Below are positions 23,011-56,300 of a stretch of 64,000 bases of DNA, piece by piece. A program made the translations under genes and the position numbers. The stretch comes from Antedon mediterranea (taxonomy: Eukaryota > Animalia > Echinodermata). The notes under the pieces are model-generated. The model searched no databases and was not told where the DNA came from. It worked only from the letters and a program-made list of their open reading frames with translations. Location of the stretch: positions 17,219,432 through 17,283,431 of the forward strand of contig NC_092679.1 of the NCBI RefSeq assembly GCF_964355755.1, in the 5' to 3' direction. How positions within the stretch are numbered: the first letter of the stretch is position 1; each line of letters starts with the position of its first letter.

Positions 23011-23324
23011 TTATGGTTCAAGAAGGGCGTGCCACCTGCACACTTGATGACCTTTAGAGTCTCGCATCTCATTCCAATGTGCCAACTCTTCCTCGCTGCT
23101 ATTCTGCAGACCCATTGAGAACCAGCCTAAAGTCTCTTTACGCTTCATTGCACGTTTGTTGAAGACTGTGTAGAGTAACGTGACGTCAGGAAGCTGAAAT
23201 TGAGCCACTTGAAAGATGAACGTCTCTTTGAATGTCGGGTTAGGCTGGCCTCGTCGTATCGACGTCTTGCTCTTGGTCATCTCAAACCCACTCGACGACA
23301 TCAGTGACACACGCACATACGAAT
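23011..23324 (-). CDS. SYT14: SYT14-like last exon (C2B, C-terminal part)
   Basis: Acceptor AG at 23326-23325, phase 1; (D)SYVRVSL...HALLEP stop. Confidence 0.93.
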
Positions 23325-26300
23325 CTTAATATAATAAACAGTTTACAGTTTAATTGTATATAAAATTGATTGGATTGGAACTTAAAACTATAAAGAATAC
23401 GCCTACCAATTTAAAAAACAAAAAAAGACTTATCTAAGTGAAAGGCTCTCAATTTCTTTATGATACATACTGTGACATATTACAGTACCATGTGCTACCC
23501 TTCTACCCAGCATATTTCATTTAATAATCACTTAAAATATCACTTTGTGACCAACATGTGACTTAAAACGCCTATATTTCACTAACAAACTTCAAGTACA
23601 AAGTACAACACATACTTAAATTAAATATGTCGTACTTACTATTCTAAGTTATTGAAGATTAATAAATAAACCATCAAACATTGTTCGATGACGACAAAGG
23701 GAGTCAGACAACAAAGAGGTAAATAATGCAGTTATTTTAATAGCATTATGAGATGGCAATAATAGTTACACAAATTAACTGGCAATATGAATCAGGCATT
23801 TATGCATAAAAGTAGTGTAGAGGTAGCGTGGTGGTTAACATGCTTGCCTTCCAATCCCAAGGTCCAGGGTTCAATCCTGACCTATTGGTCTTTTAACTCC
23901 ACTTCTTAAGCCTCAAATGAGACTTATTCTATAAGCATGATAAACTATAAAATAGTTTATCCATCCTTTAATTAGCGAGTTTGTGCTCGCTGTTGGATGA
24001 GTATGAAATAAAAACTAAATAATTAAAAAAAAACTTACACAAATTAAAAACATTGTTGTAAAAATTTTAAAAATATTTACCTGGTGCACGGCCTGCAGCC
24101 AAATTCTTGAAATGGCTGCCTTTGAGAATTTCAACTGATAATCGGCCAGTCGTTGAGTTATAAGAAAGTCCGACTAAAAGTTCCGGCATACCGCCATGTT
24201 GCAACGACTGCAATGACGAGTTGCTTTCACTGTGTGATAGATCTGATGAACTAGAATATGGCGATGATGAACCACTCTGTATAAGAATAAAATGTTGAAT
24301 TTTACAGAAGGAAAGTAGAATATGAAATAACAAATAAGTAAATTATACCCGATTAACGCACACAACAAAAAATGTAACTTTTACATATATATTTCCTAAT
24401 TTTATCCAGTTATAATAACATATACACAATTCAAACAAGTAAAATGTAAATGCTGTTAAAACACGTACATTAGAACAATATGTACATATGTGCAGATATG
24501 GCTGAGCTACCGTACCTCGAATAGCTTGTTCACATATGCACAGATATGGCTGAGCTACCTCGAATAGCTTGTTCACATATGTGCAGATATGACTGAGCTA
24601 CCTCAAATAGCTTGTTCACATATGCGCAGATATGACTGAGCTACCTCGAATAGCTTGTTCACATATGCACAGATATGGTTGAGCTACCTCGAATAGCTTG
24701 TTCACATATGTGCAGATATGACTGAGCTACCTCAAATAGCTTGTTCACATATGCACAGATATGGCTGAGCTACCTCGAATAGCTTGTTCACATATGTGCA
24801 GATATGACTAAGCTACCTCGAATAGCTTGTTCACATATGCGCAGATATGACTGAGCTACCTCGAATAGCTTGTTCACATATGCGCAGATATGACTAAGCT
24901 ACCTCGAATAGCTTGTTCACATATGCGCAGATATGACTGAGCTACCTCGAATAGCTTGTTCACATATGCGCAGATATGACTGAGCTACCTTGAATAGCTT
25001 GTTCACATATGCGCAGATATGACTGAGCTACCTCGAATAGCTTGTTCACATATGCGCAGATATGACTAAGCTACCTCGAATAGCTTGTTCACATATGCGC
25101 AGATATGACTGAGCTACCTTGAATAGCTTGTTCACATATGCGCAGATATGACTGAGCTACCTCGAATAGCTTGTTCACATATGCGCAGATATGACTGAGC
25201 TACCTTGAATAGCTTGTTCACATATGCGCAGATATGACTGAGCTACCTTGAATAGCTTGTTCAGAGATTTTACATTGAGGTAACACAGAAAAGCTTTCAC
25301 ACATTTGTACCAAGTAAAAGATTTTTGTATGTGAATTTGGTATACGCTGTATTAACTAACTGCTATAATGTTCGCCTTGATTTTACTTACAGTATCGCTC
25401 CTGGCCAGGATTGGTATTGTAATTGTCTGCGTCGTTGTTGTATTGGTATTTAGAGACGAGAACTTTGTCACACATTCGCCAATTAACTGTTCCTTTCGCA
25501 TTTTCTCGGTCCCGAATAACCGAAACCTCATTGATGTGCTTGCTAATTCATGCGGAAAGAGGCGTGTGAAGCGAAATAGTTCTTTGAATTCTGGATTCTC
25601 ACCCTCGCGAATCCTTGTCTTTGCCCTTTGTCTCTTACTGGGCATGAGTGCCAAACGGACACGACAGCTTCCTGGGCCTCCTCGATCTTTAGAGGGTACG
25701 TCTGAAACTTTAACGACTGTGATATTCATCCTGCGTGCCTCTCCACTGTATGAGAATGCAACTTCCAATTTTCCGACTGTTGGTGGGGGTTCTCGAGGTT
25801 TTACCTGTCAAAAATTATATACAAGTCATTAATTATTCCATATTTTATAACTCCTAATGCTAGTGTTAGTGTAATAATAGCAAAAAAGTTTACTCTTTTA
25901 CTATGGTAATAAAAAAACAGTAATTATCATATCATATACCATATTTGGACGTATCCACAAATTGGGCTAAGCTTAGTTTTTAACCAAAATGATATAATTG
26001 GTATAAACTCACTTTGAGATACAAACACCTTATATGGATCTGGAGTGTTTTTTTGTGCTCTATTGGTCCTTGTTAAAGTGTGCGCCCTCTATTGTTGTGG
26101 TATTTGTACACTTATATGCAAATTATGCTTGTACACTACTGTATAATGCCAATCACGTAAAACGGCATTGAAAGGGACATTGTGGTCGAAGGCGGTGTTA
26201 TGTGCGAGGCCTTACAATTTATTATCAGTGTTTCCAGGATATGTATTGTAGTATCATACGTTATTGAAAGAATAAACCCTGCATAAAAATTAAGCCTTCG

Positions 26301-32300: not shown

Positions 32301-35300
32301 AAACATAAAGTTGTAGTTCCTCCACCAGGTATCTTTCAGAATGCTGATATGTACTGTAGACGGCGATGGAGACGAGTGCAACACTTATCCAACGAGTTTT
32401 GGTGTAGATGGCGAAAAGAATACTTATCGTCAATGCAGTCACGGTCAAAGTGGACGTCACCAAAGAGCAACTTCAAAGTTGGCGACGTAGTGCTTTTGAA
32501 GGGAGACAACGTTCCACGTAACATCTGGGAATTAGCCAAGGTTATTGCACTGCATCCAAGCGACGACGGGCTCGTAAGAAAGGTTTCAGTCTTCGTTGGA
32601 CGACGACAATCCGTGCTGGAAAGACCTGTGCACAAACTAGTGCAGTTGGTGCCAGTTGATTGAACTTATGAACTTGATAATACTAGAATCATGGTTAGCC
32701 ATGCTCTTTTATAAAATGTATTGCGAATAATATGGATTTTGGCGATTCGCCTATACTGATGATAATCTTTGATTGAATAGACCTTAAGTCTTAATCATAA
32801 GTAATTTCATTATTGTTTCAAATCCCCGTCAGTGGAGCCTTTATAACTTGATCGTGCTGTTTAATGTTTGTAATATGTTATTATATTTTATGTTTTGCAA
32901 AGATCTCTAGTATCGTTTGCAAGGGAGCCATGTTAAAGTGTGCGCCCTCTATTGTTGTGGTATTTGTACACTTATATGCAAATTATGCTTGTACACTACT
33001 GTATAATGCCAATCACGTAAAACGGCATTGAAAGGGACATTGTGGTCGAAGGCGGTGTTATGTGCGAGGCCTTACAATTTATTATCAGTGTTTCCAGGAT
33101 ATGTATTGTAGTATCATACGTTATTGAAAGAATAAACCCTGCATAAAAATTAAGCCTTCGTGTACGAGTTATTAATAAAGTGTCGCTTTATTACAGTCCT
33201 CATGAGTAATAATAGTTATGACCCCTTTAAGATCCTACAAAGTGTACCCTTAAATAGTTGTTAGTCATAGTGTTAACAAAATATATAGTCCTTCACTTCT
33301 TTCATAGGAGTGTATTACCTTAGGGGTGTCACCTGAAAAGGATTTCCCAAAGGAGGGGATTTGTACTGGAATCTACTTTATTGTACTCTACAGGGATTCT
33401 GTTGGGTTTTCCCCAAATGTCAAGGTTTAAAAATAGCATTTATCATGTTCTTGAATGTTATAGCTATAATTAGCATTGACAGTTGTTATTCATTAACACA
33501 ATACCAGGTAGTTAATATTATACATCTTTTATTGTCAGATACCTGTATTATAGTGGATACACCACAGATACCCACATATTAAATTATTATTATGAGATAC
33601 CTTCATATTCATAAAGGTCATAATACTGCTACTAACTGTAAGGTTCATTAAACATTGTATCAGTGTAAACATGCCAAAAAGAAGTTCTTTTTGTATAGAT
33701 AATCCTAGCTATTAAATATAACAATACTTGTGGCCACTGTTTGAATATGTATTCTTTAGTACTATGGTTTCATTTTAGGATAAGATTAAACAAATGTTTT
33801 ATGTATCAAAGAACTCAGTTGTCTCAGTATTGTACTTTGCTTTCCCATTATGTATCTATACTTTAAATACTATATTTCCAGTTTTAAAATATGGATACAC
33901 CCATCCTCACTACTATCTACATAACCATTGTAACCCTTTAAAACAACTTTGAAAGTTGATGGTCTCATATACAGCTATGTAAATGGTATAACACGAGTGG
34001 TGTAACGCAGAGACATGACGCCCCTGGTTTAGGGACGCAAGTGGTCCTCCATCGCTGGAGACCATCAGCGTTTTAATTTTTTTCGACATATTTTAATGCA
34101 TGTTTTCTTCTTCTGGGCCTGCTCCGGGGCCCCTGGGTTTAGCAAGTGAGCGCTCATAGCCGTTACTTTATCCCCATCTGGTTACCCTTAAAACAACTTA
34201 AAAGTTAATGGTTCCATACATGTTTGTATCTCTCTCAATCTAAATAAATTTACCTCTCCTCCCTCTAAACCAATTGTATCGTTTTCATCATCCTGGTCAA
34301 AGAGTCCAGCAGAAGAACCAAAACTACCGCTGCCTACGGTGCCTTGTTCTACATCACCAAGATCTTCAGTGTGTACTGCGAAAAATATCAAAAAATAAAA
34401 CGTTTAAAATAAAGGACACAACACAACAATGAAGATTATGTTAAACAAGAGATTAAAAAAACAACAGTCAATTAAATTTTCAATTAAAAATTCAGCTGAA
34501 CAATATTTCACAGAAATCCATCCCCATCCACCTCCTCCGCACCAGAAGAATAAGCTTCTGCATTTTTTGTTCAAACTGATTGGTGCAAAAGTATTCTCGA
34601 TTATAACATAACAGACACAGAGTGCATCCTTGCCATTCAGTACAGTACTACTATTATACGGAAAAGTGATATTCAATGATGATTTTTAATGGTACTATTG
34701 TACGATGATTTTAAGAATTTTGTGAGAACATGTACTACTACTGTTCTATTCTATGTACACAATATGAGCACTACCTTTTGAATGGTATAGCATTTGATAT
34801 TGATAGTGGAGTCTGTTAGGGCTGAAATAAGGGAGAATATATCCCTGACATACTCCACTATAATTAAAGATAGAAGGAGCAGATTAACTGAATATAAGTT
34901 TACTTTAAAGCTCGGTCTACACTATCAAAGTAGTATGACAAAAAAAGTGTGATGTGCTCAAATATAATATGACATCATCATTTCCATATATGGGCACATC
35001 ATATTTTTTGTCACATAAGGTTTGATAGTGTAGACAAGGCTTTGAAAAAGATTTGGTGTGTTATAAAGAAAAAAACATTCCTCCTATTTAACTCAGAATC
35101 ATTCATTATTTGTTGAAAATGTTGTGGAGGAAAACAATTTATTCACTAAAATATTTGTTCAATCTTCCTGCAAGTGCTGAATTGATCTTTTCCCGAACTC
35201 AAATTTACTTTAAAAGCACATGTATCAGAAAAATATTTGTTTATACCAGCAACAGTAAATTATGCTAATTGTAAATTATATGCATATGGCATAACAAGGC

Positions 35301-38300
35301 AATATATTAATACAGTAGTATGCATTGTGTATAAATAACCTATTTCCGAGAATAATAACAATACTGTTAATTAAACATTGTTGTTGTTGTTATGTTAGTA
35401 TATAATTGCCATTTATAGTTCAGATATTAAATAGTGCATCTCAAATGGGGTTGGTGACATGTTCCTAACCACCAAACCATAGGCCTTTACAAAACAATTT
35501 ACAAAATAAAATAATCATTTTCCTTCCTAAAAAAACTTTGAAACCATCGTAAAACTATCTAATACATCATTTGAAAAAAAAACCCACAAAAAATAATTTC
35601 CATTACAACAATCAATGCAATGGATTTAGATTTCACAGTAAATTTGAACTACATGCTTCTTCCTTGTCCAAGACAGTGGCTGTGTGAACTAATACACCCC
35701 GAGGTAACTCTCTACTTGTCTTGTAAGATGTACTACTGTAGGTTCCTTTTGAATACACAATATTATCTGGGATGTATAACTCTAAAATTATGATAGATAC
35801 AAATCAATCATATAGTGGTCACCATATTATTTATTGCTGATCTACTGATCTAGTTAAAGATAGTATGAAGATATTATATTGACTTGTGATATAAAAAATG
35901 ACATAATAAAAGTCAAGTCTATTTCCAGAATAGAATAATCTATTGAAAGAAAGAATGACTATCTAAAGAAATAATTCACATATTTATAAATTCTAAAATA
36001 AACCACTTCATATTTGAAAGGGTCAAATTAACAATGGCATAATTATCTATAAAACTAGATAAAAGTATTATGATTCAAAAAGTATATAAAGATTGTGGTA
36101 TTAATTTTACTACTTAAATAGGCTGTTTGGCCATGAACTGGAAGGAACCGCAAGCCACATCGGGTAATCATGTTTTGAAAGTCTGATTTTTCCCCATAAA
36201 AGTCGACAGTTGGTAATCTTGTCAGACACACAATCAGTCATTCCTGGTCAAATCCATCAGTACTAATACCAGTCGCTGTCCAATCATTGAAACTTCAAAA
36301 GAATCCCTCCTTTTCAAACTAGATGCCAGCAGCATAAAGTTATACTAGTAGTTATAAATTGTGGTTACGATACAAGCTTACTTCACTTAAGAAAGTGACC
36401 CGTGGTAGTTCATGAAACCTTGGTTTAAGTTTTATAATACAACATTTTGATAAAAAAGACCTAGATTCCGCAACTGGGTTCATACAGCATGTAAAAAATT
36501 AATATAGTAGTTTTAGTCTTTGGGCTAGTTTACTGTATTTTATGGCAATATGCATAATAAACAATCATATATTTATATTTCAAATACGGTAATAATAAAG
36601 ATGATTGACAGCGATGACCATGCTGTACTAGCTTTAATAAACACTAAGTGTACTGGTAGGCTAAGCCAATATGCTAAAACAAGTATAACACATTAAAAGC
36701 CCCAATGGTGAGTGACTCATAATCACATAACAAAAACATATAATTGAAAATGACATACATAGATTTTGTTCATTCCGTATTCTCACGCAAAGTTCGGGCC
36801 TACCGAGTTATGGTTTTGTATCATACACAACAATATACAACTGAACTAGGAAGAGATTAGTGGAAGCCACCATTTACGACACTGACCTTTTGTTTGTTAC
36901 GAAATCTATGGGTACAAAATTAATGTATATTGCTTATGATATGAAAGTCATACACCAACAATTTTGCCCACCTCATCCCCCTCCCGCAACTACTGTTCTG
37001 CGAAACATCAATAAAAATAAACGTTAATCAAGTTGAACACTTTGCAGTTACGATACTAAACGTGAACTGGTTTACGATACAAAAGCGTAACAATCTATCT
37101 GAACATACTTTATTCTAAAAACAACAAACTGACAGCAAATCTTTTAAGGACATCATTAATACTCATAAATCATAAAATCAATAAACAATCCAGATATATT
37201 GTGTTTTACCTCTGTATACATATCCTGACCTCTCCGAACTTGTCCACGTACTACTACAAATTGACGAATCATCAGAATAATTAAAAGCAAAGCCAGCTAG
37301 TCCTGCGTGATTTTGAAGAAATGATGGATTGTTTTGTAGTCCTGTTTTACTACTGGCACTTATATACTCGTCCTGTTGTTCGTCCAAAATGTTATTTACC
37401 TCTTCGGCGGTATTCACGTTAACAGAACCATTTGCCTTCGTTTCATTTGATTTCCAAAAGGTGAAAATTCCAAAGCCAGGCTGTCCAAAACTAAAATTTG
37501 CACAACAACTCAAGCAACCCATGCTTTTAAGCTAACTATTCACACACAAATGAAAGAATCAGTGAATCGAGTTAAAGTCAATATGCAAATACTAGCAGGT
37601 CACATAAATTGACCTTGAATGAATTCAACCATTGTAAAGTTGAGAAAACTAAAAGCCTGTGGTATATGGCTTTTAACTGAGATAATATGGGTTTATGAAA
37701 TGTACAGAAACGAGCTTAAATTTGAGATTATGTTCTAATTATCAACTCAAAAGTTCATAATCATAAAACTAGATTTTCTAAACCTAGAAACTCAATTCAT
37801 AATAAAACACTATCTGATAATGTCCGTATACATAACAGACTCAATTATTGATACCACTAATGTTCAATATAAAACTCATGAGAAGGAAGTCTTGATTTAA
37901 CGTTTTGATCTCTTCCTTTCAACCATTATAAATATGAACTGAAAATTATTGACAAATGAGGTCTATGATTTAAACAAATCTGGTGTTTTTTAATTATATA
38001 AAAATCCTTTTTTTCTTGATCAAATATATTATTCTGTTAAATATTTTTAAGGTGTTTCATAAGGACCAAAGTAGAAATATGTTTGGCAGGGTTATAGAGT
38101 TACTCTAAAACTAACCACGACACTCAGAAAGTGTTTTCCATTTATTTAAACATTATTATTTGATAAAATATTTGTAGAAATTAAAATGATTTCAATTTGA
38201 AAACATTCTAAAACATTTAATTTTGTTCATTAAAAAGCAATTAAAAAGTAAATATACGGTTGAATTGCATTCAAATTTCTTCAAAATATCAAATTTGTTT

Positions 38301-41300
38301 TGTTAAAATACAGTTTACTATTCATTTCATTTCTCTTGTTTTTATTTCAGACTACATATCCATAAACTGTATATATCCACAAACTGTATAAATAGGCCTA
38401 CTGTGCATGTGTTTAAATTAAATAAAATGACAAACACTTTCCATTTTCTAAAAGAACCTTTGACTATAATATAATATATGATAATTATATGCTTATAAAC
38501 AAAAGACCAGAAAAATAATACAGAAATGGTTCACAAACCATGAATACTAATTGAGAATTATGAATACCTAATTAGTTGAAAAAGCAATTTATATATTTAT
38601 ATTCATGTGAACACAATCAAGCACACAATGTTAATATTCTAATGTATATTGTATGGCATGATCATTACATTATCAACTGGATTTATCCAAGATGATCTCA
38701 TTATCTTGTCATTGGTTGTAATGAATCACCAATCATTCATCTTTTTGACACAGCTCAGATGTACCATGTTAGTTCACTGGGGAAAAGCAGCTTTCACACT
38801 GCGCCCGGATTGGGAAAAATATAAAAATCATGAAATATTGTGGAAAATGGGTTCAGTGGAAGATCGTTCACACCAAATTTGTATGATTTGAATCTGTACC
38901 TGATTTGGGCTCCAAATTTGTAGCGATGGATCAAAAGCTTTGTTTTCTGAAATCATACAATTGTTTTCTTTTGTCCAATCAGCAGTGAGCATGAATGACC
39001 TCGCTTGACAACAAATAACCGAATTTGTGCATAATGTGAAGGCACGCTCGCTATATTTTTATAAGAGCGCCGGACCGAATCCGGCGTAATATGATGGCCA
39101 CATGTGTACACTGGACCTCCATCCCACCCTCTGATATTTCACCCTATGATTTACTATAATTATATGTGAAACTCAAATTCTACATCCTAAACCCAATTGT
39201 AAGCCTGTCTGTTCAAGGTAAGGCAATTGTACCCAAGTCATTGCTGATGTATTAACATTGAAGAATTATCCAAATGATGTAAGTGTAAGCAACTTTGACC
39301 TCCTACTTTCAATGTTCAAACCAATCCTAATCTAATATTTCCATAAAAAACAACGATTTTTAAAAATCAAGGCAATGCAAGGTCTTAAAAACCATTGTCA
39401 CAACTGTATGCATAGAATGCCCACTGATGACAAAAGGTAATCCTTATGCACATACACAAGTTTAAACCTCTTTATTTGTTAAAGATTAAAGAGACTGATA
39501 TAGGACATATAAGATTAAGAGGAGACCACTGAATAAAACTACATTACAACAGCAAGTGATATGGGCCAGTGAAAACCATAAAGCACCTAAAAGCTGGAAC
39601 CAACCATCTTCATCTATCTGTTATTATGAATATCTACAACTTTGTGAAACTTTTCTAAACTTCTTTCAAAGACTATAAACATTACAATCTTAAATTTCAC
39701 CTTTTACACTGCTAATTTTGATGATTTTTTTTTACTGTAAATAGTTTATATATTTTCAGTTAAGGGTCACAGTTGTTGTTACGGATTTGGTTTACTTTTG
39801 TGTCCGCTGACTATCATCTCAATCTGTTTTTTGTTTGTCTATTCAATGTTTTTGTCATGGTAATAAAGTACGACAATAAAAAAAAAAGAGTGAAAGCTAC
39901 CAATTGTATGTACCTAAGCAGCATTTGTTACATAGCAAAAAGTCTATTTTGGTTTACCAAAGGAAAAAATACAAACATAAATCATTTGAAACCAGATGAA
40001 TTTTTTTAGAACATTTCTTAAATGTTTGACATAAGCTTCACCAATAACTACTTACAATCTTCAGAACTTGTTTGAAAGTTTACAATTTTGTGCAAAAATC
40101 CGAGAGTGAGTACTGCACCACCATTCATTTCAGCTGAAGAATCCTTGTCTACTTTTGGGCTAAGTAATGCAGATTTTGCTAAACTTGTCCACATATTTTC
40201 CTTCTTTTTTGATTCAGTTACCAAGTTGCTTGTTTCCATTTTGTTATCTTCCGGGTTGTGATGCGAAAAATCTGGAGAAGCTTCCGTGCCATCATTCAAC
40301 TCAGCTGAAGAGTCTTTGTTGCCTTTTGACCTATGTAATGCCGATTTTCCTAGACTTTTCCAATTATTTTTCTTCTTTTTTGAATCAGTTACTAAGTGGC
40401 TCATTTCCATATTGTCATCTTCTGGTGCGTGATGCAAAAAACCGCAGCATCTTAAAATCCAATTAATCATTTTTGTTGCTGGTACTTTCCACTTTTCACC
40501 ACAACACCAACATATACTGTACCTTGTAAACTTAATGTCACCATGAAATGAAAGACAAACTAATAAAAAACAGCAAAATAATTGACAATATGGCATGTCT
40601 CTAGGTATACAAACAACACAATGCTGGCAATAAAATGTTACCACAATGTGTATGGCCCTACATTTTTACAAATGAAGAACATCGACAAATACACTAACTG
40701 TATGGCAAAATAGTTGACTTTGACAAATTTACGCCTCGAATCAGTAGACCAAGTTCATATTAACAAAACTATACTAATCTACATTTGTATAAAAGAGTGT
40801 ATCTAAACTTAGTTTAATATAATAGGCTTTGTATTTACCATTGACACTTCTTTTTGGAATAGCCCATTTTTTAACCTTTGCTATTTTAATTAAACAAAGT
40901 AATTGAAATTAGAATTTTTTTAATTCTGATTGTGAATAGTTGGTTTAGTTTAATGCCTTTACACCGAGTAGTCTTCTGACCACTTCACCTGGGCTGCTTT
41001 GGTGAGGTTGCAGATGAGATCTTATTATTAGTAACAATGCACCCAAAAATAATGGTAAAATTCTTACTTTAGTGGCCATATATAATTACCTATAGAAATG
41101 TATTAATATGATTTATACTGCAATTGGATTGTACTGCTTATGATTGTTTTTATTGTAATTTTCATTTCTGTGTATAATATATATATTTTTGATTGCTTTT
41201 GTCCGTTTTTGTTTTGGCATCTCTGACACAAGCATTTGCTTTCTTGGTGCCGCCACCATTATTTGGAAATAAATGTTATTTTGATTGATTGATTGATTTA

Positions 41301-44300
41301 ACTAATACCGAAAATACAACTACAGGATAGAATAATTTCGCTGAAGACCTCTTTGAGATCAGAGGTTGGAATCTATAGCTCACCACTTTATGAATGAACA
41401 TCGAGGTATTGATGAACTACATGCTATACATGGAAATAGAAATAAAAAGAACAGAAATAGGGTCAGCATCGCTTATTTGCATCAGCATTTTTCACCAGGA
41501 TCACTATTTTATTAAAGAGCTCCTAAGGAGGTTGGAACCACTTAGCTCACCACTTTAGTAGCAGTATGCCTACAATTTCCATTCAGAAAGTTAATATACT
41601 GTACAGTATGTTACTTTATGAAGTTCATTCTATTGAATTTACCTTGAAATTAAGGCTAAAGCAAATTGCTTATTCGCCTCTCTGGAATTACACATCTCTT
41701 ACATACGGCTGAAACTTTTGGTGGTGGTTCAATGACTTTGACTCTACTACAACTCTCGGCAAAGCGTTCCAATCGTTAACTACCCTTGCTCCAAAATTAT
41801 TTGATCCCCATTTAGTTTTGACCCGCAGCTTTGATAGTTTGAAAGAATGACCTCTAGCCTGTCTAGGTTTAGCTTTATCTTTCGCACCATGTTTATCACC
41901 GCCGCCGGTAGCCATGATTGTACTACGATGAATAAATATAGGCCTATGTGACAACAGTAGGCTAAGAATTTTAATCTCGAAAAATAAACTCAATCCTAAT
42001 CCTTAAAAACCCACAACTCAGATTTCAGTAACCTGTTCATGCAATTATTTAGAACGTTCTTTTTGTGGATAACCATACACTGTAACTGCTTCATAAACTT
42101 GTACATTGAAACAAATTAAAATTGTACGGAATCAAAGTAATGAGCAATCCAACTAGCAAACAGAAAATTTGTTTAATAAATCAAATAAAGTCTAAAATTA
42201 CAGTAAGTTGAATTTACAGATATTGGCAGATCACGTATCAAGTACATTTGCTAGACTAAAAAGTAAAGATGGTTACATTAGCTAGTTTTGAAATTATAAA
42301 AAGGTAAATTTCTAGTACTGCTGCTGCAAACAATTACAAACATTTTAGCACCATCATGTATGGTGACAAAATACCAAATCATCTCTTTTAGATTTGAAAA
42401 CATTTAACCATAGAAATATTATATAGTGGATATCTCTATGATTAAACTAATAATTCATCTATCAATAATACATACCAGATTCTGAATCATTACCAAAAAA
42501 AGACACCGGAGAAAATGCATTGAAGAAGCTTTTTGGTGCTTGTTTGGTAGGTGGTAAACTAGATTCTTCTGAACTATTGCTTAAGGAATGTGTACTTTCA
42601 TAGCTTTTTGCTAAAGACTTGCTGCTATTGCTGTTTATCAATTTATTGATTTCCACTGATTCTTCATCAGATTGTGGTGTACATTTACAACAAAAATGGA
42701 ACAACCACTCCATTGATGATACTTCTCTCAAAATATATGTAAAGTTTACTTAGGAGAAACAGTTTCTTGGATGTAATTGGTCAAAGTACTGTATATAAAT
42801 TCAAAAGGAGCAATTAAAATTCAGTCACCAACATTACCATGAGGCAACTCTTCTTGGTAAAAAAAGGAAAAAGTACTTGGGAATACACATCAACTTCAAG
42901 ACAGAATCCAATGGAATGCTTTTAAAGAAAAAGTTTCTTCAGTTAAAGTACTGCATATAAGATTGAGTAAACAGCAATTCAATGCAGTCACCAACAATAC
43001 CATGAGGCAACTCTTGTAGCTAAAAATTATTATCAGGTACTGTAATATTCTAGTTTTAAATTCACACTCTAAAAGTCAATGGCAGGGTTCCTTCCTGCAA
43101 CAGATATTCCAGAATGATTTGTGAAACCTGAATTTTAATCTCGTCAGAAGTTTCCTGATTGACTTATTACAATAAGTAAAAACTTCCAAATTGTCGATGT
43201 GAGCAATTATTTCTTGATAGAATATTTTCAAAAATACATTTCAACTTTAGAAAAATAATTTAGAAGCATACTCTATGTGTAGTACACTTTATCAATAATA
43301 GAAAAGCAAAATTAAAACTATAGCTACTGCATCAAATTGTAGACATTTTCCAAGTCCATTTGGTGACTGTATAAATTTACTTCAGATGTTTCCGAATAAA
43401 ATAACTTTTAATCAAAACTGTTTGCTGCAACAACAATACTACATATAATTAGAATAATAAGCAGTAATAATTATAGTTTAGACAATAATCAATCCGACTT
43501 TGAGTTAAAACACCAATTCTAGTGAAATAATACTGAAAACAGCAGGTGTCAATTGTTCTTGCAGTTTGAATGGAATCTCTAAAAAGTAAACCACAAATGG
43601 AATTTTTTTCCACCTTACAGTGAGTTAATAATAACAACCTTGAATAGGACCAATTTTAAATGCATCAATAGTTTAAAAATGTACAATCATATCAACACTA
43701 TTTATTTTTAGTATTAGTATATACAAATTGTGTACAATGAATTGTATGGTCTATAGCAATACCAATGATGGAAGAAGAAGAAAGGTCATTAGTTCAAGTT
43801 GGCTTATTATTTGTCAGCAGCCAGTTGGTGACCATAATCTCAAGTCTGGTTTTAGTAGAATCACTACAGATAAATTATATTATGTAAGTAAGTTCAAATG
43901 AGAAATGAACACTAGTAAAGTTAAGTTTGGGTTACACCATGTGATTACAAAAAATAGAGTAAGGTTGAGAATGTTCTTCTTCAATCATCTTCTGGAAAAT
44001 GGTGCAACTAATGACTAATCAAAATATGATAAAGAGAATCATTCACATAGAAATCCAATTATTATCTATTTATTCTGATGAGTTGTTAAAGCGTGGTTCC
44101 CACTAGCGACGCAACGCAAGGATGTAACGCAACGCAAGTGAATTGACCAATCCCAAGCGATGGCTTATTCGCTTGTGATTGCTAACTGTCTATAACTTCG
44201 CTTTTCATTGGTTAAAACGCTTGCGTTGCGTTTACGTCCTTGCGTTACGTTCTAGTGGGAACCAAGCTTTAATGTCGTATGAGCCTATAACTTTTGCTAC

Positions 44301-47300
44301 CGATGGGTGTGACCATGATCTTTCTAGGGAGTTGGTAGAAGAGTTTCAAATATCCATTGCGAGTGAGTTGTGGCTAGCCTAAACTTCAATAAATAAATAT
44401 TTAATCAAGTTACAGTTAGTAAAAAGCCAAAAAAATATAATAAAATAAAATATGGACAAAAAGGAAGGAGAGAAAAGGCAACTACTGTACATGCATATTG
44501 AGCTAACTTCCATTTAACAAGGCCGGCTGAAATCGCGTGCTCAAATTTGAGTTAGTGTTTACCGACCGACCGACATAGTGAGATGTAGAGTCGCGTGCAA
44601 ACGTGTGAGGAAGTACTTACCACCAGAGCAAAAACTACTGTCAACTGTGTAAGTAAAAGTTGGAATCTTTTTAGCGGGAGTGCAACTAGATCCATAGGAG
44701 TAACTTGTTGATGTTGATGAGCATTCTGAAGAATTTAACTTTGATGATTTTTGTTCTTTTGCCTTTAGTAGTAACTGGCTATTTTCCAAGCATTCATCTT
44801 CAGAATCCAACTGTTCTGAACAACAACATTTTAGCACATAGCACACCATTGCATCTGGTGACAATTTAATTATACCAATCTCAATGGTAAATAATCCAAA
44901 ATTAATTTTATTATATATTTGACAACGCACAAAGCCTCAATATTGAAATTTATAATCTTCACTTAAAAAGTAACAGAGTATGTTTATGTTCAAATTTGCA
45001 GTAAACCATCTGGAGTATAATCTTAACTTAAACAGTAAATATATCTTTAAATAAAAGTCCAAATTGGAGACAAATTTTCTATACAGTATATTCCATAGTA
45101 GGGAAAGTACTGCACTACTACTACAGTACCGTATACAACATCTAAGAATCCAACCGAAGCAACAAAGTGATCACAAGAGATTGTACTGGTAGCTGCAACG
45201 ATATTATGAACATCTGGAAGGATCATAAAATCTTTAAACTGTCCATTTAGAAATCAACTGCTAACAACGCTGGTATCAATTTACCTTTGGTATATTGCAC
45301 CAAGATACAATAAAAAAGTTATTGATGCACTTTACTACTTTTACTTAGCATCAGTGAAAATGTATTACAGGATAGAAATATACCATTAAAACTGTCCTTC
45401 TAGAATACTGCAGAATGGATAAGTTTGGTGCCTCACAAGCACATAGAAAACCATACATACCCCACACAAAAATGTACACACAAATGCCAAAAAGTATACA
45501 GTATGGTCTTACTTGTGTATTTCAAAAGAGCTGTGATCATTCATATAATCTTATTCATTGTTCTTCTAAAAATAGTGTTAAATACAAGCCAACATGTATT
45601 CACTTTAAAACAAAAGGTATTGCTAGGCATAATTAATTGCTAAAATAAAAGCCACTACAGTATGTTAAATTATAAACTCTCTGAAAAGGATTGAATATAC
45701 ATATATTCTAAAGTCAGTCAGGGGATATTTGGTTTTGCAACATTATGGCAAGTTGAAACTGTAATGTGATATTCTACAGTAGTGTTTTCAACAGGAACAA
45801 AGGTCTATAGCAAATAGACATTTTATTTATAGGAATATGTGTGCAAATATATATTTTATTTATAGGAAAATGTGTGCAAATAATCTAAGTTTAATGACAT
45901 ACATACAGTAGTCGATAACATTAATCGCTTTATTCTAGATAGTAGGTATGATGTATACTATTGGTGAAATAAGGAAGATGTAATTTTGTTATGTTTTATT
46001 AATGTTATGGTTGATAAGTTGATTAATATTTTAGACCTAAAATAGATTTAAATAAATTTGTAGAGAATGTTTTACCTGCTCTTTCTGGTTCCACGTTTGG
46101 TTCAACGTTTTGTTCACCTTTGACATTTGTTGGGTAGAATTCCTCTGTACCTGCACTTTTAACTGACGAGGGCCTTCTAGAATGCTCATAGTCTCTCACG
46201 CTTGGAGATCTTGAACGTCGGATCTCTTCATCTGGAATGTCTTGTGCATCGTAAGGAAAGTCAGCTAATGACCCTTTCCGATAATCTAAATCCCCAGGTT
46301 GTGCAAACTCACTGGTTGCTCCCCTGATAACAAGCTCATCGTCAATAAGGTATTCTCCCTCATTATTTGGATCATTCTTTATTTCTACTAATCCATCTTG
46401 TTCATCATTGTTGTTATTATTCTCTCCATTTTCTTCTGGTTTTGGCTCTTTCTTTTCCAAACCAAAGAATGAGGTCACAGATGTGAAAGAATCTCCGACA
46501 GAGTCTCCTATTGAAGTGACCGTTGAAGAAACACTGTCGCCGATGGAACTAAACTTTCCACCAACCGTAGAAAAAAGATCGTCCAACGGCATAATGATGA
46601 TCACAAAGTTAAAAACATTTAATAAAACACAACTGTCCTACTCAAAACAATAACCAAGACTATCATAGTTCCAACAGATAATGATGCGTCAGTATGCTTC
46701 CAACAAATCGGCAACAAAATTCCATATGAACAGAAATTTACATCGACAGAGGTGTGAAAAATCTATAAAGTTTAACTGAATCTGTTCCAAAAGGTAAATA
46801 CAGGTTTGGTACTCTTCTCTAACAGATGTTCATTCCCAAGGAGACTACAGACTATAAGACCTGAAGCTTTGCTATCTACATGCATATAATACCTGCAATC
46901 AATTAACTAGAATATTAATATGACCATGGACCATGACGTAATCATGGATAAATAAATAGTTAGATAATGAACAAAAAAAACATTGGGAGTAGTACGAACA
47001 CATAAAAAAAAGTTCAAATATATATACGGTACTTTCAAAGTTATTATTTTCATAATGTTTTTAGTTTGTTTTCAGAAAAATAAAAAATTTAAAAGGTGAA
47101 TGATTAATGATACATAAAAAATGTCAAATTATTCAGATATGACGGATCAATGAATATACTGTACATGCAGTTATTTAAATTATCAGATCTTTTGAATGTC
47201 AAAAAATGCATATAAAATAATTTAAATTATCAGATTTTTGAATGTCATAAAATGCAATAAAATAATTTAAATTATCAGATCTTTTGAATGCCATAAAATT

Positions 47301-50300: not shown

Positions 50301-53300
50301 TTTACTACAGATGTAATTAATTAATATAACTGTACATAATTGTAATATAACTGTACATAACTGTAATGTAACTGTACATAACTGTAATATAACTGTACAT
50401 AACTGTAATATAACTGTACATAACTGTAATATAACTGTACATATTCAAATTACTTTATTTAAACATTTTGACTAATAATCTAATTGTATGCACTGCAAAT
50501 ATAATTACAGTAATAATGCTATACCTAACATTACATTAATATTATTTCCTCAATAAAGGATAACTATTGTAGTATTAATTTAATATGTAATTTAATATTA
50601 TTAACTAAAATTATCAAAAAAACTCAACAATTAAAATATGCAATAAAGAATAAAAAAAATCCCCTTTCTAATGACCTTTTTTGAATATGTATAAAAATAT
50701 TAATATATGTAAATATTATGCAGTTGGTGGTTATATTATGAGCCATAGCAAAGACCATTAAAATGCTAACATATGTTATAAAATAAATGCTATTTTACAA
50801 ATTCTAAACAACCAATCGTAAAAAGGTGCAAAAGGAAAAAAAAAGAACCAAGCAAATGGATACTTACACAAATTGACATGCAAAAATGGTTGATAAGCAT
50901 GATGATTGTGATGATGGATGAATGGTGCTCTACAAAATGCTACAAAAAAGTTGTAAAATCTTCATCCAAAAAAACGCATGCAATCCACGCGGTATCACAA
51001 TGTGTGGAAAAAGATGCAAAAGAGAGTAAAATGTTTGTATCTTTAAACAATTAAATTTGTTTATAATCTTGATGTCTTTTAAAAGCTATTTAGAATTTGA
51101 AAAATATTTTATGAAATGATCCACTATATAAATTATAGCGGACAATACCATTGTACATTTCACAGTGTACAGTTTTGTTCAAATTCAAAAAATGAATTTG
51201 AGAAACTTTTATATAAAAATCATCTATTTGAAATAAAAAGAAGTATTTTGATTATTTAATATAAAGAAAAACTCACATGTAAATACATCTGTTATATAAA
51301 GAATATTTGAAAAAAAGAAGAATATTTTAAGTTGTATTAGAAATATAGTAAAATTAGTATGTGATATACTGTATAATAAAGTATCCATGCATTTATCAGA
51401 GTATATAAGGAAGGGTCTGTTCAGACTTAAGTTATTTACCCAGGTAAGTTGGTTTCATATGCACAGTAGGTATAGAAACCAACTTTACTCTGATACAAAT
51501 AACTACAGTAGGCCTACAATAACCCTGAATTTACATAAAGTCAAATGTTGTGATAAATGGTTAATATTACATATAAATATTAGCATACAGCAATGCAAGA
51601 ATATAGTATTAGTGCAAAAGATAAAGTCACATGACCATTAATACAATAAAAGCAAACATAAATATTAATATGAAGTTTTTATTTCGATAATATTATTTTA
51701 ATGACTTGTTTTTGTATCACTGTATTTTCACTCTCTCTCAAATGATGAGCCTAGTACCCAGTGTATTTTGCATTGAATACTATGTCGGTGTCAAAAGTCT
51801 GAAGGGCTGAAACAGGTACACAGGGAGACTGTTTACATACTATAAACCTACATATCACATACAATTCATATACAGTAACAGTAGTACTAATAGTAGGCCT
51901 AATCCAAAAGACTTGTTTCATCTACAACTTGAGCCTCCAATAGGTCACTTGACGCTGCTGTATCCCAACAACTCAATTGTTGATGCTATCGATTTTCTTA
52001 GGCCTCTGTCATCCTTTGGAACGGTTTACTCATCTTTATCTGTCAGGCTACCTCAATCGCTTAGTTTAAGCCTGCTCTGAAAACTCACCCTTTTCTCTTA
52101 TTTTTCAGATTTTTATTTATTTTGTTATGCGCAATGCTTTGCATTGTGCGCTATATAAGCCCATTTATTATTATTATGTTTTATTATCGTTTAATATACT
52201 ATTAGTTTAAACAATTTTTTTAATACAGTACTATCCAATGCAACTCCTGATAATATTAATAGTATTTAAAATATTTTGTGCATTACCATACTGATTCAAC
52301 TATAAGGTTACCCTGAGCCACATTCCCCTCCCCCTTACCCAAACTTGACCCCGATAATTGGTGTCGGAGAGGTCATGGAGCATGACCCTATAATTTAGTC
52401 AGTATGGTTGTAGTTGTTATCACTGCAAGCTTACTTCTTGATTAGTATCCTTTTAAAACTTAATTATTTTGATGTTACCTGCAATGTAAACTTTGGACTC
52501 TGTGGTTTTTTTAAGAAGGTTATAAAAACTTGATTCTGAAATGATTGCATTTTTATAATGGTATAAACAATGAACATAATGAATAGACAACACGAACCAG
52601 AGTGGTGCTGGTGCTGGTGCTGGGTGGTCTATACCTGCTGTTTAACTGGATAAACCAACATATGCCGTTTCCTCACAAAAGGGAGAACATAACTTTCCTA
52701 AAGCGTGGTTCCCACTAGCGACGCACCACAAGGACGTAACGCAACGCAAGTGAATTGACCAATCACAAGCGATGGCTTATTCGCTTGTGATTGCTAACTG
52801 TCTATAACGCTTGTCATTGGTTAAAACGCTTGCGTTGCGTTTATGTCCTTGCGTTACGTTCTAGTGGGAACCAAGCTTTAACAACTTTGAACGCCTGTTT
52901 AACACAGTGGTATAGCCCATGAGCCATGGTGGCAAACTTTACCATTTGAATGTGAATAAATTATTAATGAGGAAAACTTTCCAAAAAGAAAATGATATTG
53001 GACAAATTTTGATACAGTATGAAGAATTACATGATCCATATGTAATGTAAATAAATATAACACGCCAGCTTAATGAAAAACAGTGAGTCAATGTTTGTAC
53101 TTGTATCCCAATAAAATCCACAAAAATGGGAATGTCTTATTGAACAATAAGAATATCCGTATGATATGGACCTAAGACTTACTTTCAGAGGGCACTCTTG
53201 ATGCAGCTGCTACAGACTTCTTCTTATAACCACTTATGCTAGGCTGACGAGAAAGGCGACCGAAGCTGAGAGACTGCTGGTACTTCAGTAACATCTCATC

Positions 53301-56300
53301 ATCACTGTCTGATGACGATTCATCTTCATCATAGCCATAGCTTCCTTCTAAAGAATAAAATGATTAAACAATTTAGCTTTGACTGAATCAGTTTGTTTAT
53401 TAAGTGTAGGTTTCAGTTCTTTGATCCAAAGCATTTCCTTAATTAAACAATCAAATTTGAAACTTTTAATCATTTCAGGATATTGTCTATAAATCCAAAT
53501 TTGATTTGACTTAATAAACAAACAGAATAAAATGATTAAAGAATGAAATGAAGAATAAAATGATTGAAGAATTAAATGATTAAAGGACTAAATGATTGAA
53601 AAATATGAAATGAAGAATAAAATGACATGATACACTGTAAATGTCCGGGGTTCAAATCTTGATAATCTTTACAGTGCCAAAAAACACTGCTACTGATATT
53701 TATTCTACTTCAGTTATTGCTGCAGTAATAAACGTAATACAGCAATAATAATGTTAGTTTACTGCAATAACTGCAGTAGTATAATTTTCACGAAATCCCA
53801 AGCTTTTTAATGAGAATTATATTCGATTTATGTGTTTAGTATTTTATTCTACAAACAAGTGGAGTAAACTTGATGTGAGATATGTGCTAAAATTCAAAAT
53901 AAAGTTACTATAATTATCATACCCAAGCCTTGTTTTTGTTTTTTCTCTTTCTCCTTTTTCCCTTCCTCCATGCATGGACATCCTCCGCAATTGGCAAAAC
54001 ATAGTGACTTACTTAGGTACAAGAAGAACAAGATGACCATGAATAGAAGGACGACCACTACAGTGAGGAACACGATAGCCTGGTCAGGAACTGAAAATAA
54101 ATTATTATTATTATTATTTTAATAAAAATAGGAATTTTCTTTATTGAGGTTTTATTTATGCACTGCAGTAATCTGAAAGGCTATTTGGGTCATTCCATGT
54201 CAGATCACCCAATGGTAAACACCCTACTGACTCGGATTTTAATGAAAATTGGTACAGGTGGTTATTAGCCTAAAAAAAGCTTAAATATAAAATTTTACGT
54301 AATTCAGAAAAACAGATTAAAAGTTACGGGCTGGACAAATTGTGGAAAAAACGCAAAAAACCGTAAAAATGGGTGCGGCCGCCAATTTTCAAAAGGCCAT
54401 AAAACAAGAACTACAAGTCCAATTAAAAAAAAATAAACAGTATGGGAAAGGAAATGCCCCAAATATTCCAAATTTGTTATCAGAATTGTAGTAGAATGTC
54501 TTAAAATATATTTGACCTTTTGATATATAAAATGACCCCCGGTTTGACCTTGTGGAACGTATATTTTTTTAATGTCATTACTTTTTTTTTAAACTATAAA
54601 GTGGTATTTATAACATATGTAAAATGCTAAGATGTCTTTTACCTCATTTAGAAGATATAGTTATATCATGTTGTCTGGGTTTGTGTTTTGTATCAATCTA
54701 TGTGTTAATTGATATACCAGGAGGATATTGATGAAGTAGAATACTGTACAACAAGCAATGGGTAACAACAGACCGCACAACATTAATAATGGTGAAAAAG
54801 TATTGAAGAATGCGGTGATGAGCTACTGTAGCTGACCAAATGAAGCTAACAAGGCACCAGTTACTGTTGCTGAAGCTCAGGGGTCATTTATCCTTTGCAG
54901 GAGATGATTTTGCTGAAAATTACGCTTTTGTCATCCAAGATGAAATAAAAAGCTTTCACTGGAAAAACAAACAGGCAACACTGCATCCATTTGTAGCATA
55001 CAGATGTGAGATGGATGGAAATTTATCTAATTGCAATACACTCAACAACAGTGTGGACTTTCCAAAAAGTTGTTTTAAATCATTTGAAGGGTAAATTTTA
55101 CGAAATAAAGAAGGTTCACTACTTTACCGATGGATGCGCAGGTCAATATAAAAATAAGTCCAATTTTATCAATCTATGCAATCACAAACATGATTTTGAT
55201 TTAAATGCCGAGTGGAACTTTTTCGCCACATCACATGGGAAAAGTGAATGCGATGGAATTGGGGGGACATTACAACGACTGGTAACCAAAAAGAGTCTAA
55301 AACGTCCATATCATAATCAACTACTAACATCAATAGACATGTTTAATTTCTGTGTTGAAAACATTCCTGGTATCATTTTTTTTCATTTATGGGAAATGAC
55401 TGTTTTACCTTTCTATTTACTTATATTGTTCTATGTAAAAGGGTCCTACAAAAAAACAAAGCTACAGCTTTTTTATGCAGGATCCCTGTTATCAGTTGTA
55501 TTGCAATTATGTTGTAATTGATGACTAAATAAATGTGGAATAAATTGAAATTTCATCCGAAGAAATTAAAGAATCTGTAGCCCGACTGAAATCTCGATTT
55601 TCTGAAGCCAAAACCATCAAAGGCACCCTTCAACTGCACAGATTTGTACCGCAACAAGATGGTTCTCTTATGGTATACAAGTGCACAAAAAGATGAACCA
55701 AGGAAAGTAAACGTAACAAGCTGCCCATCAACATCTACTACATTTGCACGAGAAGTTCCACAATATGCAATTTCTCAAAATCATTTTGTGGCGTGTTTGT
55801 ATGATGGTGTGTGGTGGATTGGGATGGTGCTGGATGTCATTTCAGCTGAATTTGGTGACTAAACAGTACTTTAAATCATTTATGCATCATCCTGGTCCTT
55901 CAAAAAATGTCCATTGGCCAGATAAAGCTGATGGATTGAAGAATCAAGTGACCTATGTCTTATTGATGCACCATCACTAACATCATCATCAAGTAGGAAT
56001 TTACAGTATATCAAAACAAGAAGAAGATGCAATATTGACTACTTTCAACAGGAATGATATCTTTCAATAAAACATTTATAGAGGCAATGTAAAATATAAC
56101 TGATTAAACATGTTAAACGCTGTTTTTCACATAGAATTTGTTTGATGTGCAATTTTGAAAGCCTATAAAATAGAACTGGTACAAAAGACATCTTAGCTTT
56201 ATCTAACATTTTACAGGCAAGAAGTGTGAAAATATAAAAATTAATATTTAAACATTATAATTTTTGTTCCACAAGGTCATGGCAAAGGTCAAATTATAGG

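What the first reader, a model, noticed from the sequence alone, without database searches (positions are those of the whole stretch)
40056..44849. Exons B, C and D share a Cys-cluster plus acidic-dileucine cassette and look like a tandemly duplicated family
Seen: all three begin M-hydrophobic-CC with the Cys pair at about residues 8-9 (MINWILRCC, MEWLFHFCC, MVCYVLKCC). An acidic patch follows, ending in a [DE]xxxL[LIV] motif: PEDDNMEMSHLV, SDEESVEINKLI, DSEDECLENSQLL. B and C also share (K/T)SL(A/G)KS. Established: N-terminal Cys clusters are typical S-palmitoylation anchors, and [DE]xxxL[LI] motifs bind AP adaptor complexes for endosome/lysosome sorting. Inference: these are paralogous exons encoding a lipid anchor plus a sorting address. 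Similar motifs occur in exon E (EGEYLI), the TM isoform (DDEMLL), paralog 1 (ESAMLL) and paralog 2 (DNPALL). Short motifs can arise by chance, but the fixed spacing in B-D argues against that.
Basis: partly seen in the sequence, partly recalled or inferred. Interest (0 to 1): 0.75.

Follow-up and report, generated by a model that had tools for sequence, protein, structure and literature searches.

The report
Swappable lipid-anchor starts of synaptotagmin-16
A feather star's synaptotagmin-14/16 gene holds three unannotated, likely alternative first exons that would replace the protein's membrane-spanning segment with a predicted fatty-acid anchor plus a predicted endosome/lysosome sorting tag, a design that also appears in annotated sea star and sea urchin versions of the same gene.

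Summary
B, C and D are minus-strand ORFs in the long intron of a crinoid SYT14/16 gene (C2A exon 100% identical to Antedon mediterranea RefSeq). Each starts M..CC, carries [DE]xxxL[LIV] at residues 21-27 and ends at a phase-1 donor fitting the shared acceptor. A neutral scan of 18 kb finds exactly five such ORFs: annotated exons A and E plus B, C, D (shuffled mean 0.19). None of five RefSeq isoforms uses B-D and no spliced join was seen, so they remain predicted exons. Likeness is confined to about 36 residues (B-D p=0.0005, C-D 0.0075, B-C 0.053): old tandem duplication is likely, not proven, and the shared SLAKS is chance-level. The best support is independent: annotated sea star and urchin SYT16 isoforms carry Cys-cluster first exons, and 3 of 7 such exon families keep a dileucine 8-22 residues behind the cysteines (p about 0.005). 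It works like the LAMTOR1 lysosome anchor and Syt17's cysteine anchor; acylation and sorting are untested. Non-TM Syt16 variants were listed in 2010; the cassette was not found in print. New variant of a known kind; interest 0.45.

The parts
40056..40470 (-). Predicted alternative first coding exon B (138 codons; donor ATT|GTAAGT, phase 1)
   Evidence: not in the five RefSeq isoforms retrieved
40390..40470 (-). B cassette: Cys8-Cys9, acidic patch, EMSHLV
40117..40434 (-). Internal tandem repeat in B (copies 40434-40288 and 40263-40117, period 171 nt, gapless); the second copy repeats the dileucine-like motif; dN/dS about 0.37
42476..42713 (-). Predicted alternative first coding exon C (79 codons; donor CTG|GTATGT, phase 1); cassette 42713-42636 with EINKLI
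44621..44849 (-). Predicted alternative first coding exon D (76 codons; donor GTG|GTAAGT, phase 1); cassette 44849-44769 with ENSQLL
37210..37522 (-). Annotated first coding exon A (RefSeq X5): Gly2 plus three Cys, no dileucine
   Evidence: a 2261-nt contig of run X1 leaves the window exactly at 37210
46076..46592 (-). Annotated first coding exon E (RefSeq X1): no Cys, no TM; 74% identical in Anneissia
52480..54091 (-). TM-isoform exons (matched ranges 54091-53924, 53348-53184, optional 52533-52480); X3 starts at 61241-61218
34254..34375 (-). First constant exon; its phase-1 acceptor takes A, E and the TM exons and would take B, C, D in frame
25391..25804 (-). Constant exon, C2A domain
24081..24276 (-). 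Constant exon, linker and start of C2B
23011..23324 (-). Last constant exon, rest of C2B

Best explanation
B, C and D are likely alternative first coding exons of a crinoid synaptotagmin-14/16 gene, likely born by old tandem duplication, that would splice in frame to the shared C2A-C2B body and give isoforms without the membrane-spanning segment, predicted to be held on membranes by S-acylated cysteines and sorted to endosomes or lysosome-type organelles by an acidic dileucine. Steps. Shown: gene identity, open frames, phase-1 donors that fit the shared acceptor, absence of a TM segment, loss of most Ca2+-ligand aspartates in both C2 domains. Inferred: transcription from separate promoters and splicing; palmitoylation of Cys8-9 (no Gly2, so no myristate) at the Golgi; binding of ExxxL[LIV] to the sigma hemicomplex of AP-1/2/3; delivery of a Ca2+-independent C2 tandem to the endo-lysosomal surface, reversibly. 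Promoter choice would thus set where the same C2 body works. My odds by step: real exons 0.8; acylation if real 0.85; dileucine used for sorting 0.65; common origin by duplication 0.7.
For: Neutral exon scan returns only A, E (annotated) and B, C, D; null mean 0.19 of 300 shuffles. Donors match the U1 consensus at 6, 7, 7 of 9 positions against 6 and 7 for A and E. Codon score 0.08, 0.07, -0.02 against 0.04 for A and an intron mean of -0.24; reached by 4, 4 and 11 of 200 intron windows. B's internal repeat diverged gaplessly with pS 0.37 and pN 0.17 (Fisher p=0.03, 49 codons). Gapless three-way cassette; B-D p=0.0005. Annotated isoforms of 7 other deuterostome species with several isoforms: Cys-cluster non-TM first exons in all 7. 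Dileucine within 30 residues behind the cluster in 5 of 5 MG-Cys exons of sea stars and urchins, 2 of 2 urchin CC-acidic exons (Cys pair at 9-10, the closest look-alikes of B-D), 3 of 3 sea star CSC exons; per-sequence chance 0.02-0.12; 3 of 7 families p about 0.005. Spacing is specific: 13 of 24 for xxx against 4, 3 and 0 of 24 for xx, xxxx and x (related sequences are not independent). The S. purpuratus CC-acidic variant is in the 2010 alignment (PMC2823689, file S30). Precedents: PMC7039192, PMC6684635, PMC8859911 (passages).
Against: None of the five RefSeq isoforms uses B, C or D. In the one run guessed to be RNA, the contigs on C (267 nt, depth 3.3) and D (214 nt, depth 7.6) bridge the donors unspliced, by 45 and 54 nt, at the depth of plain intronic contigs, while A's contig (depth 76) leaves at its donor. 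Similarity vanishes behind the motif (p 0.36-0.64) and is only p 0.05-0.37 once the part up to the Cys pair is removed. B-C is not significant. No one-to-one orthologue: best pairwise hits of B, C, D among 47 first exons were low-complexity matches; D-urchin CC-acidic reached z 3.3 and 3.1 only. Four of 7 Cys-type families (11 sequences, exon A included) lack the dileucine, among them the brittle star and hemichordate exons that otherwise look most like B-D. The variants in C from one low-depth contig change 2 residues and leave 1 silent, no sign of constraint there. No acylation or localisation data.
Confidence: 0.55

Rival explanations
1. B-D are real exons with the same function, but arose separately: intron DNA was recruited three times and converged on the short anchor-plus-tag design.
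For: No similarity behind residue ~36 or in flanks; the same design occurs with other spacings in three unrelated-looking exon families, so it can arise more than once.
Against: Spacing from W/Y to the dileucine is identical in all three without a gap, whereas other families place the motif 8-22 residues behind the cysteines; B-D match at DNA level, p=0.004; local duplication is active here (B repeat; 86-nt duplicate upstream of C).
Confidence: 0.2
2. The exons and the acylation are real, but the E...L-hydrophobic stretch is not an adaptor signal; it is a short helix or binding site, and the isoforms sit at the plasma membrane or Golgi as Syt17 partly does.
For: B and both urchin look-alikes end in LV, off the strict E/DxxxLL pattern quoted in PMC8859911; the TM isoform's similar acidic-LL stretch breaks the pattern in three species; 11 Cys-type exons do without it.
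Against: The -4 acidic residue and the Leu are kept across sea stars and urchins while neighbours change; only the xxx spacing is enriched.
Confidence: 0.13
3. B-D are relics: once-used first exons now silent or nearly so.
For: Missing from RefSeq; only unspliced low-depth contigs over the C and D donors in run X1.
Against: All three frames, starts and donors are intact; B's repeat copies are 20% diverged without a stop or gap; run X5 shows 0 of its listed unique-sequence differences inside B or C (weak).
Confidence: 0.1
4. Chance ORFs in AT- and TG-rich intron DNA.
For: TGT runs give CC easily: an in-frame ATG 42 codons upstream of B also reads M..CC yet scores like intron (-0.30).
Against: 0 of 300 shuffles give three or more candidate exons; antisense control gives 1 without CC.
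Confidence: 0.02

Closest known systems
Synaptotagmin-14/16 family with non-TM alternative N-termini (Craxton 2010, PMC2823689)
   Same: Same gene family; transcript variants lacking the TM domain reported for Ciona and S. purpuratus; the urchin variant 2 in file S30 has the CC-acidic-E..LV start.
   Different: The paper's main text has no 'palmitoyl' or 'acylat'; no crinoid; no statement on a Cys/dileucine cassette in the passages seen.
LAMTOR1/p18 N-terminal lysosome anchor (PMC7039192); yeast Ego1 as a lipidated AP-3 cargo (PMC8859911)
   Same: Short N-terminal lipid anchor followed by an acidic dileucine; the first 39 residues of LAMTOR1 suffice to target the lysosome surface.
   Different: LAMTOR1 is also myristoylated; B-D have no Gly2 (the sea star/urchin MG-Cys exon does). 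No homology tested or claimed; here the anchor is one of several exchangeable exons.
Synaptotagmin-17 (B/K protein; PMC6684635)
   Same: Ca2+-independent C2 tandem without TM, held by N-terminal acylated cysteines; Golgi and early endosomes.
   Different: Syt17 is a separate gene with a fixed anchor; this locus is SYT14/16 by sequence and keeps a TM isoform.
Variable-first-exon clusters (protocadherin, UGT1, GCNT2; PMC1885805 abstract start only)
   Same: Tandem array of first exons of one phase spliced to common constant exons.
   Different: There the variable exons are long, clearly paralogous folded domains; here they are short, disordered-looking, fast-diverging targeting peptides of several unrelated kinds.

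Membership tests
Synaptotagmin-14/16 | Tandem C2 domains most similar to SYT14/16 | tested here: met
   C2B exon 73-87% identical to echinoderm and hemichordate, 64-69% to vertebrate proteins named SYT14/16; Pfam C2 twice. No tree was built.
Synaptotagmin-14/16 | Ca2+-ligand aspartates mostly lost | tested here: met
   Against Syt1 (2r83) each C2 keeps 1 Asp and 1 Glu of the five ligand positions (which positions are ligands is recalled).
Synaptotagmin-14/16 | N-terminal TM isoform exists | tested here: met
   RefSeq X2-X4 map to 54091-52480.
Variable-first-exon cluster | Several first coding exons of one phase upstream of shared exons | tested here: met
   Five phase-1 donors, one phase-1 acceptor; two of the five annotated.
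Variable-first-exon cluster | B, C, D are transcribed and spliced to the constant exons, each from its own promoter | tested here: inconclusive
   No join seen in contigs of one run guessed to be RNA; TATA-like words upstream of D only.
Variable-first-exon cluster | Variable exons paralogous over their length | tested here: not met
   Similarity limited to ~36 residues of B-D; none with A or E beyond p 0.03 for A-D.
LAMTOR1/Ego1-type acyl plus dileucine anchor | N-terminal Cys cluster followed by [DE]xxxL[LI] | tested here: met
   C and D fit; B has V in the last place.
LAMTOR1/Ego1-type acyl plus dileucine anchor | Gly2 myristoylation site | tested here: not met
   Residue 2 is I, E, V in B, C, D.
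LAMTOR1/Ego1-type acyl plus dileucine anchor | S-acylation and AP-dependent lysosomal localisation | not testable with these tools
   Needs acyl-biotin exchange and imaging.
Synaptotagmin-17 | Sequence orthology to SYT17 | tested here: not met
   All named synaptotagmin hits of both searches are SYT14/16; none is named SYT17.

The most novel reading that the evidence does not exclude
Echinoderm synaptotagmin-16 is an address-switching gene: one calcium-blind C2 body under an evolving array of promoters whose first exons supply different membrane addresses (TM segment, Cys-free helix, myristoyl plus palmitoyl, palmitoyl with or without a lysosomal dileucine). LAMTOR1-like anchors have been built into it several times, and crinoids tripled one of them, giving cell types their own lysosome-, granule- or pigment-organelle version of the tether.
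Probability: 0.35. Interest if true: 0.65.

Novelty: new variant of a known kind. Interest (0 to 1): 0.45.

Why it matters
[quoted passage not shown] A set of natural isoforms that differ only in a 30-residue address gives a direct test of where a Ca2+-independent synaptotagmin acts, and a natural series of short anchors for comparing acylation and dileucine sorting rules. Practically, it adds three probable isoforms to the crinoid annotation. It is not a new mechanism: each piece (variable first exons, Cys anchors, dileucine tags, non-TM Syt16) is known.

Tried and rejected
Whole genome not held, so no search of other crinoid DNA. Word-based protein search with the B/C/D alignment, lengths 42-242 aa: 0 of 196 candidates at E<=10; HMMER over 1.84 billion representatives: 0 at E<=0.001; neither is evidence of absence for short unannotated exons. 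Run search: no RNA holder listed on record. Run X1 leaves most of B without cover at 96% likeness; this says nothing either way. The joint tables were swamped by repeats. Pfam: nothing above cut-off for B, C, D. Atlas look-up not possible. Upstream and downstream DNA of the five exons: best p 0.026 (B-C upstream) and 0.010 (A-D downstream) among 10 pairs each, rejected as multiple testing (that DNA shuffle kept 2-mer blocks only). The upstream ATG at 40596 as B's start: rejected as less likely, intron-like codons. Earlier findings: none by place or words. Papers not held: PMC1222245, PMC1170590, PMC4340503; that yeast AP-3 accepts an LV ending is recalled and was not found in the four papers listed.
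Full report
What the locus is. The window holds a minus-strand synaptotagmin-14/16 gene. Its C2A exon is 100% identical to proteins named synaptotagmin-14-like from the crinoid Antedon mediterranea and 98% to Anneissia japonica. Five RefSeq isoforms were retrieved. They share four constant exons (34375-34254, 25804-25391, 24276-24081, 23324-23011) and differ upstream: X1 starts with exon E, X2-X4 with TM exons at 54091-52480, X5 with exon A. Both C2 domains keep one Asp and one Glu of the five Ca2+-ligand positions of Syt1 (ligand positions recalled), so the body is predicted to be Ca2+-independent. B, C and D lie between A and E and are in none of the five isoforms.

The observation. With C shifted by one residue the first 35 codons align without a gap.

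Are they exons? Each ORF ends in a phase-1 donor a few codons before its stop (B 40056, C 42476, D 44621), the phase of the shared acceptor. A scan that asks only for an ATG, 60 open codons and a common donor in phase 1 finds five ORFs in 18 kb: A, B, C, D, E. The antisense strand gives 1; 300 dinucleotide shuffles give a mean of 0.19, max 2. The donors match the consensus as well as those of A and E. A codon model trained on nine coding stretches of the window (eight RefSeq-matched pieces of this gene and one neighbouring ORF) scores B, C, D at 0.08, 0.07, -0.02, exon A (left out of training) at 0.04, intron windows at -0.24 +/- 0.14; 4, 4 and 11 of 200 intron windows reach these scores. B contains a 171-nt tandem repeat whose copies differ at 30 of 147 compared bases without gap or stop, pS 0.37 against pN 0.17, p=0.03. 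Against this: RefSeq lacks them, and in the single run guessed to be RNA the contigs on C and D run through their donors unspliced at depth 3.3 and 7.6, like intronic contigs nearby, whereas A's contig (depth 76) leaves exactly at its donor and E has a 762-nt contig (depth 22). Contigs drop rare forms, so this is weak. I put real exons at 0.8.

Are they duplicates? Local alignment against 2000 shuffles: B-D p=0.0005, C-D 0.0075, B-C 0.053; of the other seven pairs only A-D reaches 0.026. At DNA level only B-D passes (p=0.004). Behind the Cys pair p is 0.05-0.37; behind the dileucine 0.36-0.64. The trio was picked for looking alike, so these p values flatter. The family claim holds for a cassette of about 36 residues; the fixed, gapless spacing favours old duplication over convergence, but does not prove it.

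Independent test in other animals. A search with the C2B exon gave 56 proteins; members of 27 clusters were listed. For the eight species with several isoforms I cut off the common C-terminal part and examined 52 N-termini, 47 outside Antedon (single-isoform species, two Diadema species showing only TM forms, unnamed records, arthropods and vertebrates were left out). All seven other species have non-TM first exons with a Cys cluster. I grouped 21 Cys-type exons (exon A included) by eye into seven families. A [DE]xxxL[LIVM] lies within 30 residues behind the cluster in 5 of 5 MG-Cys exons (two Asterias, Patiria, two urchins: ETTPLL, ENTPLM, EGTALL, ETSALL), 2 of 2 urchin CC-acidic exons (EDQHLV, EDLCLV), 3 of 3 sea star CSC exons (DPVLLL, DPTPLL), and in 0 of 7 MCxxC exons, 0 of 3 brittle star exons of two other families and 0 of 1 hemichordate exon; 0 of 9 Cys-free non-TM exons have it in the matching stretch. 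Chance per sequence is 0.02-0.12; three or more of seven families p about 0.005 (I widened the last position to M after seeing ENTPLM, which does not change the family count). Other spacings are rarer (4, 3, 0 of 24 against 13 of 24). The urchin CC-acidic exon is the nearest look-alike of B-D (D: z 3.3 and 3.1), but orthology is not established. The TM isoform's DDEMLL breaks the pattern in brittle star and urchins, so I do not count it as a signal.

How it likely works. Promoter choice picks one first exon, spliced to the common body (shown for A, E, TM by annotation; inferred for B-D). B-D isoforms have no TM and no Gly2; the hydrophobic residues and Cys8-9 would be S-acylated, as Syt17's cysteines are (PMC6684635, passages). 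The acidic dileucine 12-13 residues further would bind AP adaptors and take the protein to endosomes or lysosome-type organelles, as the first 39 residues of LAMTOR1 do (PMC7039192, passage) and as palmitoylated Ego1 depends on AP-3 (PMC8859911, passages). Exon A's kind, without the tag, would go elsewhere. All of this paragraph beyond the sequence is inference.

What is known. Craxton 2010 (PMC2823689; passages, part 1 of 3 of file S30, a null search of file S1; the other 48 supplements not read and they may bear on priority) reports non-TM Syt16 variants in Ciona and S. purpuratus and prints the urchin CC-acidic start, without the words palmitoyl or acylat in the main text. Searches that could have found the cassette in print did not: (listings only; the library lacks most subscription papers). 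Variable-first-exon clusters are well known (listing). PMC8164606 (passages) says little is known of SYT14.

Verdict. Real feature, probably three unannotated exons; the anchor-plus-tag reading has good comparative support, the duplication reading moderate support, and expression is unshown. New variant of a known kind; interest 0.45.

Noticed in passing
window 26068-33195 (+): LTR-retrotransposon-like element in the intron before the C2A exon: one open frame of 2027 codons (26580-32663) between two identical 268-nt direct repeats, so a recent insertion; Bel/Pao-like is my recalled label, not tested.
   Followed up: partly
window 16472-16900 (+) and 3925-3569 (-): Two diverged C2A-like exons (37% and 31% to the main gene); no C2B-like partner found in the window by tblastn. 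Possible single-C2 offshoots of SYT14/16.
   Followed up: partly
window 9204-9560 (+): ORF whose first 20 residues are 50% identical to exon A (E=0.007 in the window); likely the first exon of the + strand paralog.
   Followed up: partly
window 46076-46592 (-) and P0005, P0028, P0043, P0018, P0056: Exon E belongs by eye to a Cys-free start with a helix-like pattern of aromatic and aliphatic residues found in all echinoderm classes examined, with similar starts in lizard SYT14 isoforms: possibly a further, older anchor type.
   Followed up: no
P0006 and P0011 (Amphiura filiformis): Two near-identical Cys-run first exons in the brittle star: a recent tandem duplication of a first exon in the same gene.
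   Followed up: no
window 40596-40471 (-): In-frame ATG 42 codons upstream of B that also reads M..CC at 8-9; codons score like intron.
   Followed up: yes
window 42780-42863 / 42942-43026; 44086-44272: An 86-nt duplicate upstream of C (83%) and a high-copy inverted-repeat element between C and D with relatives at 17080, 52699 and 60441.
   Followed up: no
window 12099-14493 (+): ORFs that look like a PIF/Harbinger-type transposase in pieces (recalled resemblance).
   Followed up: no
window 946-1599 (+): 217-codon hydrophobic ORF, a neighbouring membrane-protein exon (TMEM26-like by recall, untested).
   Followed up: no
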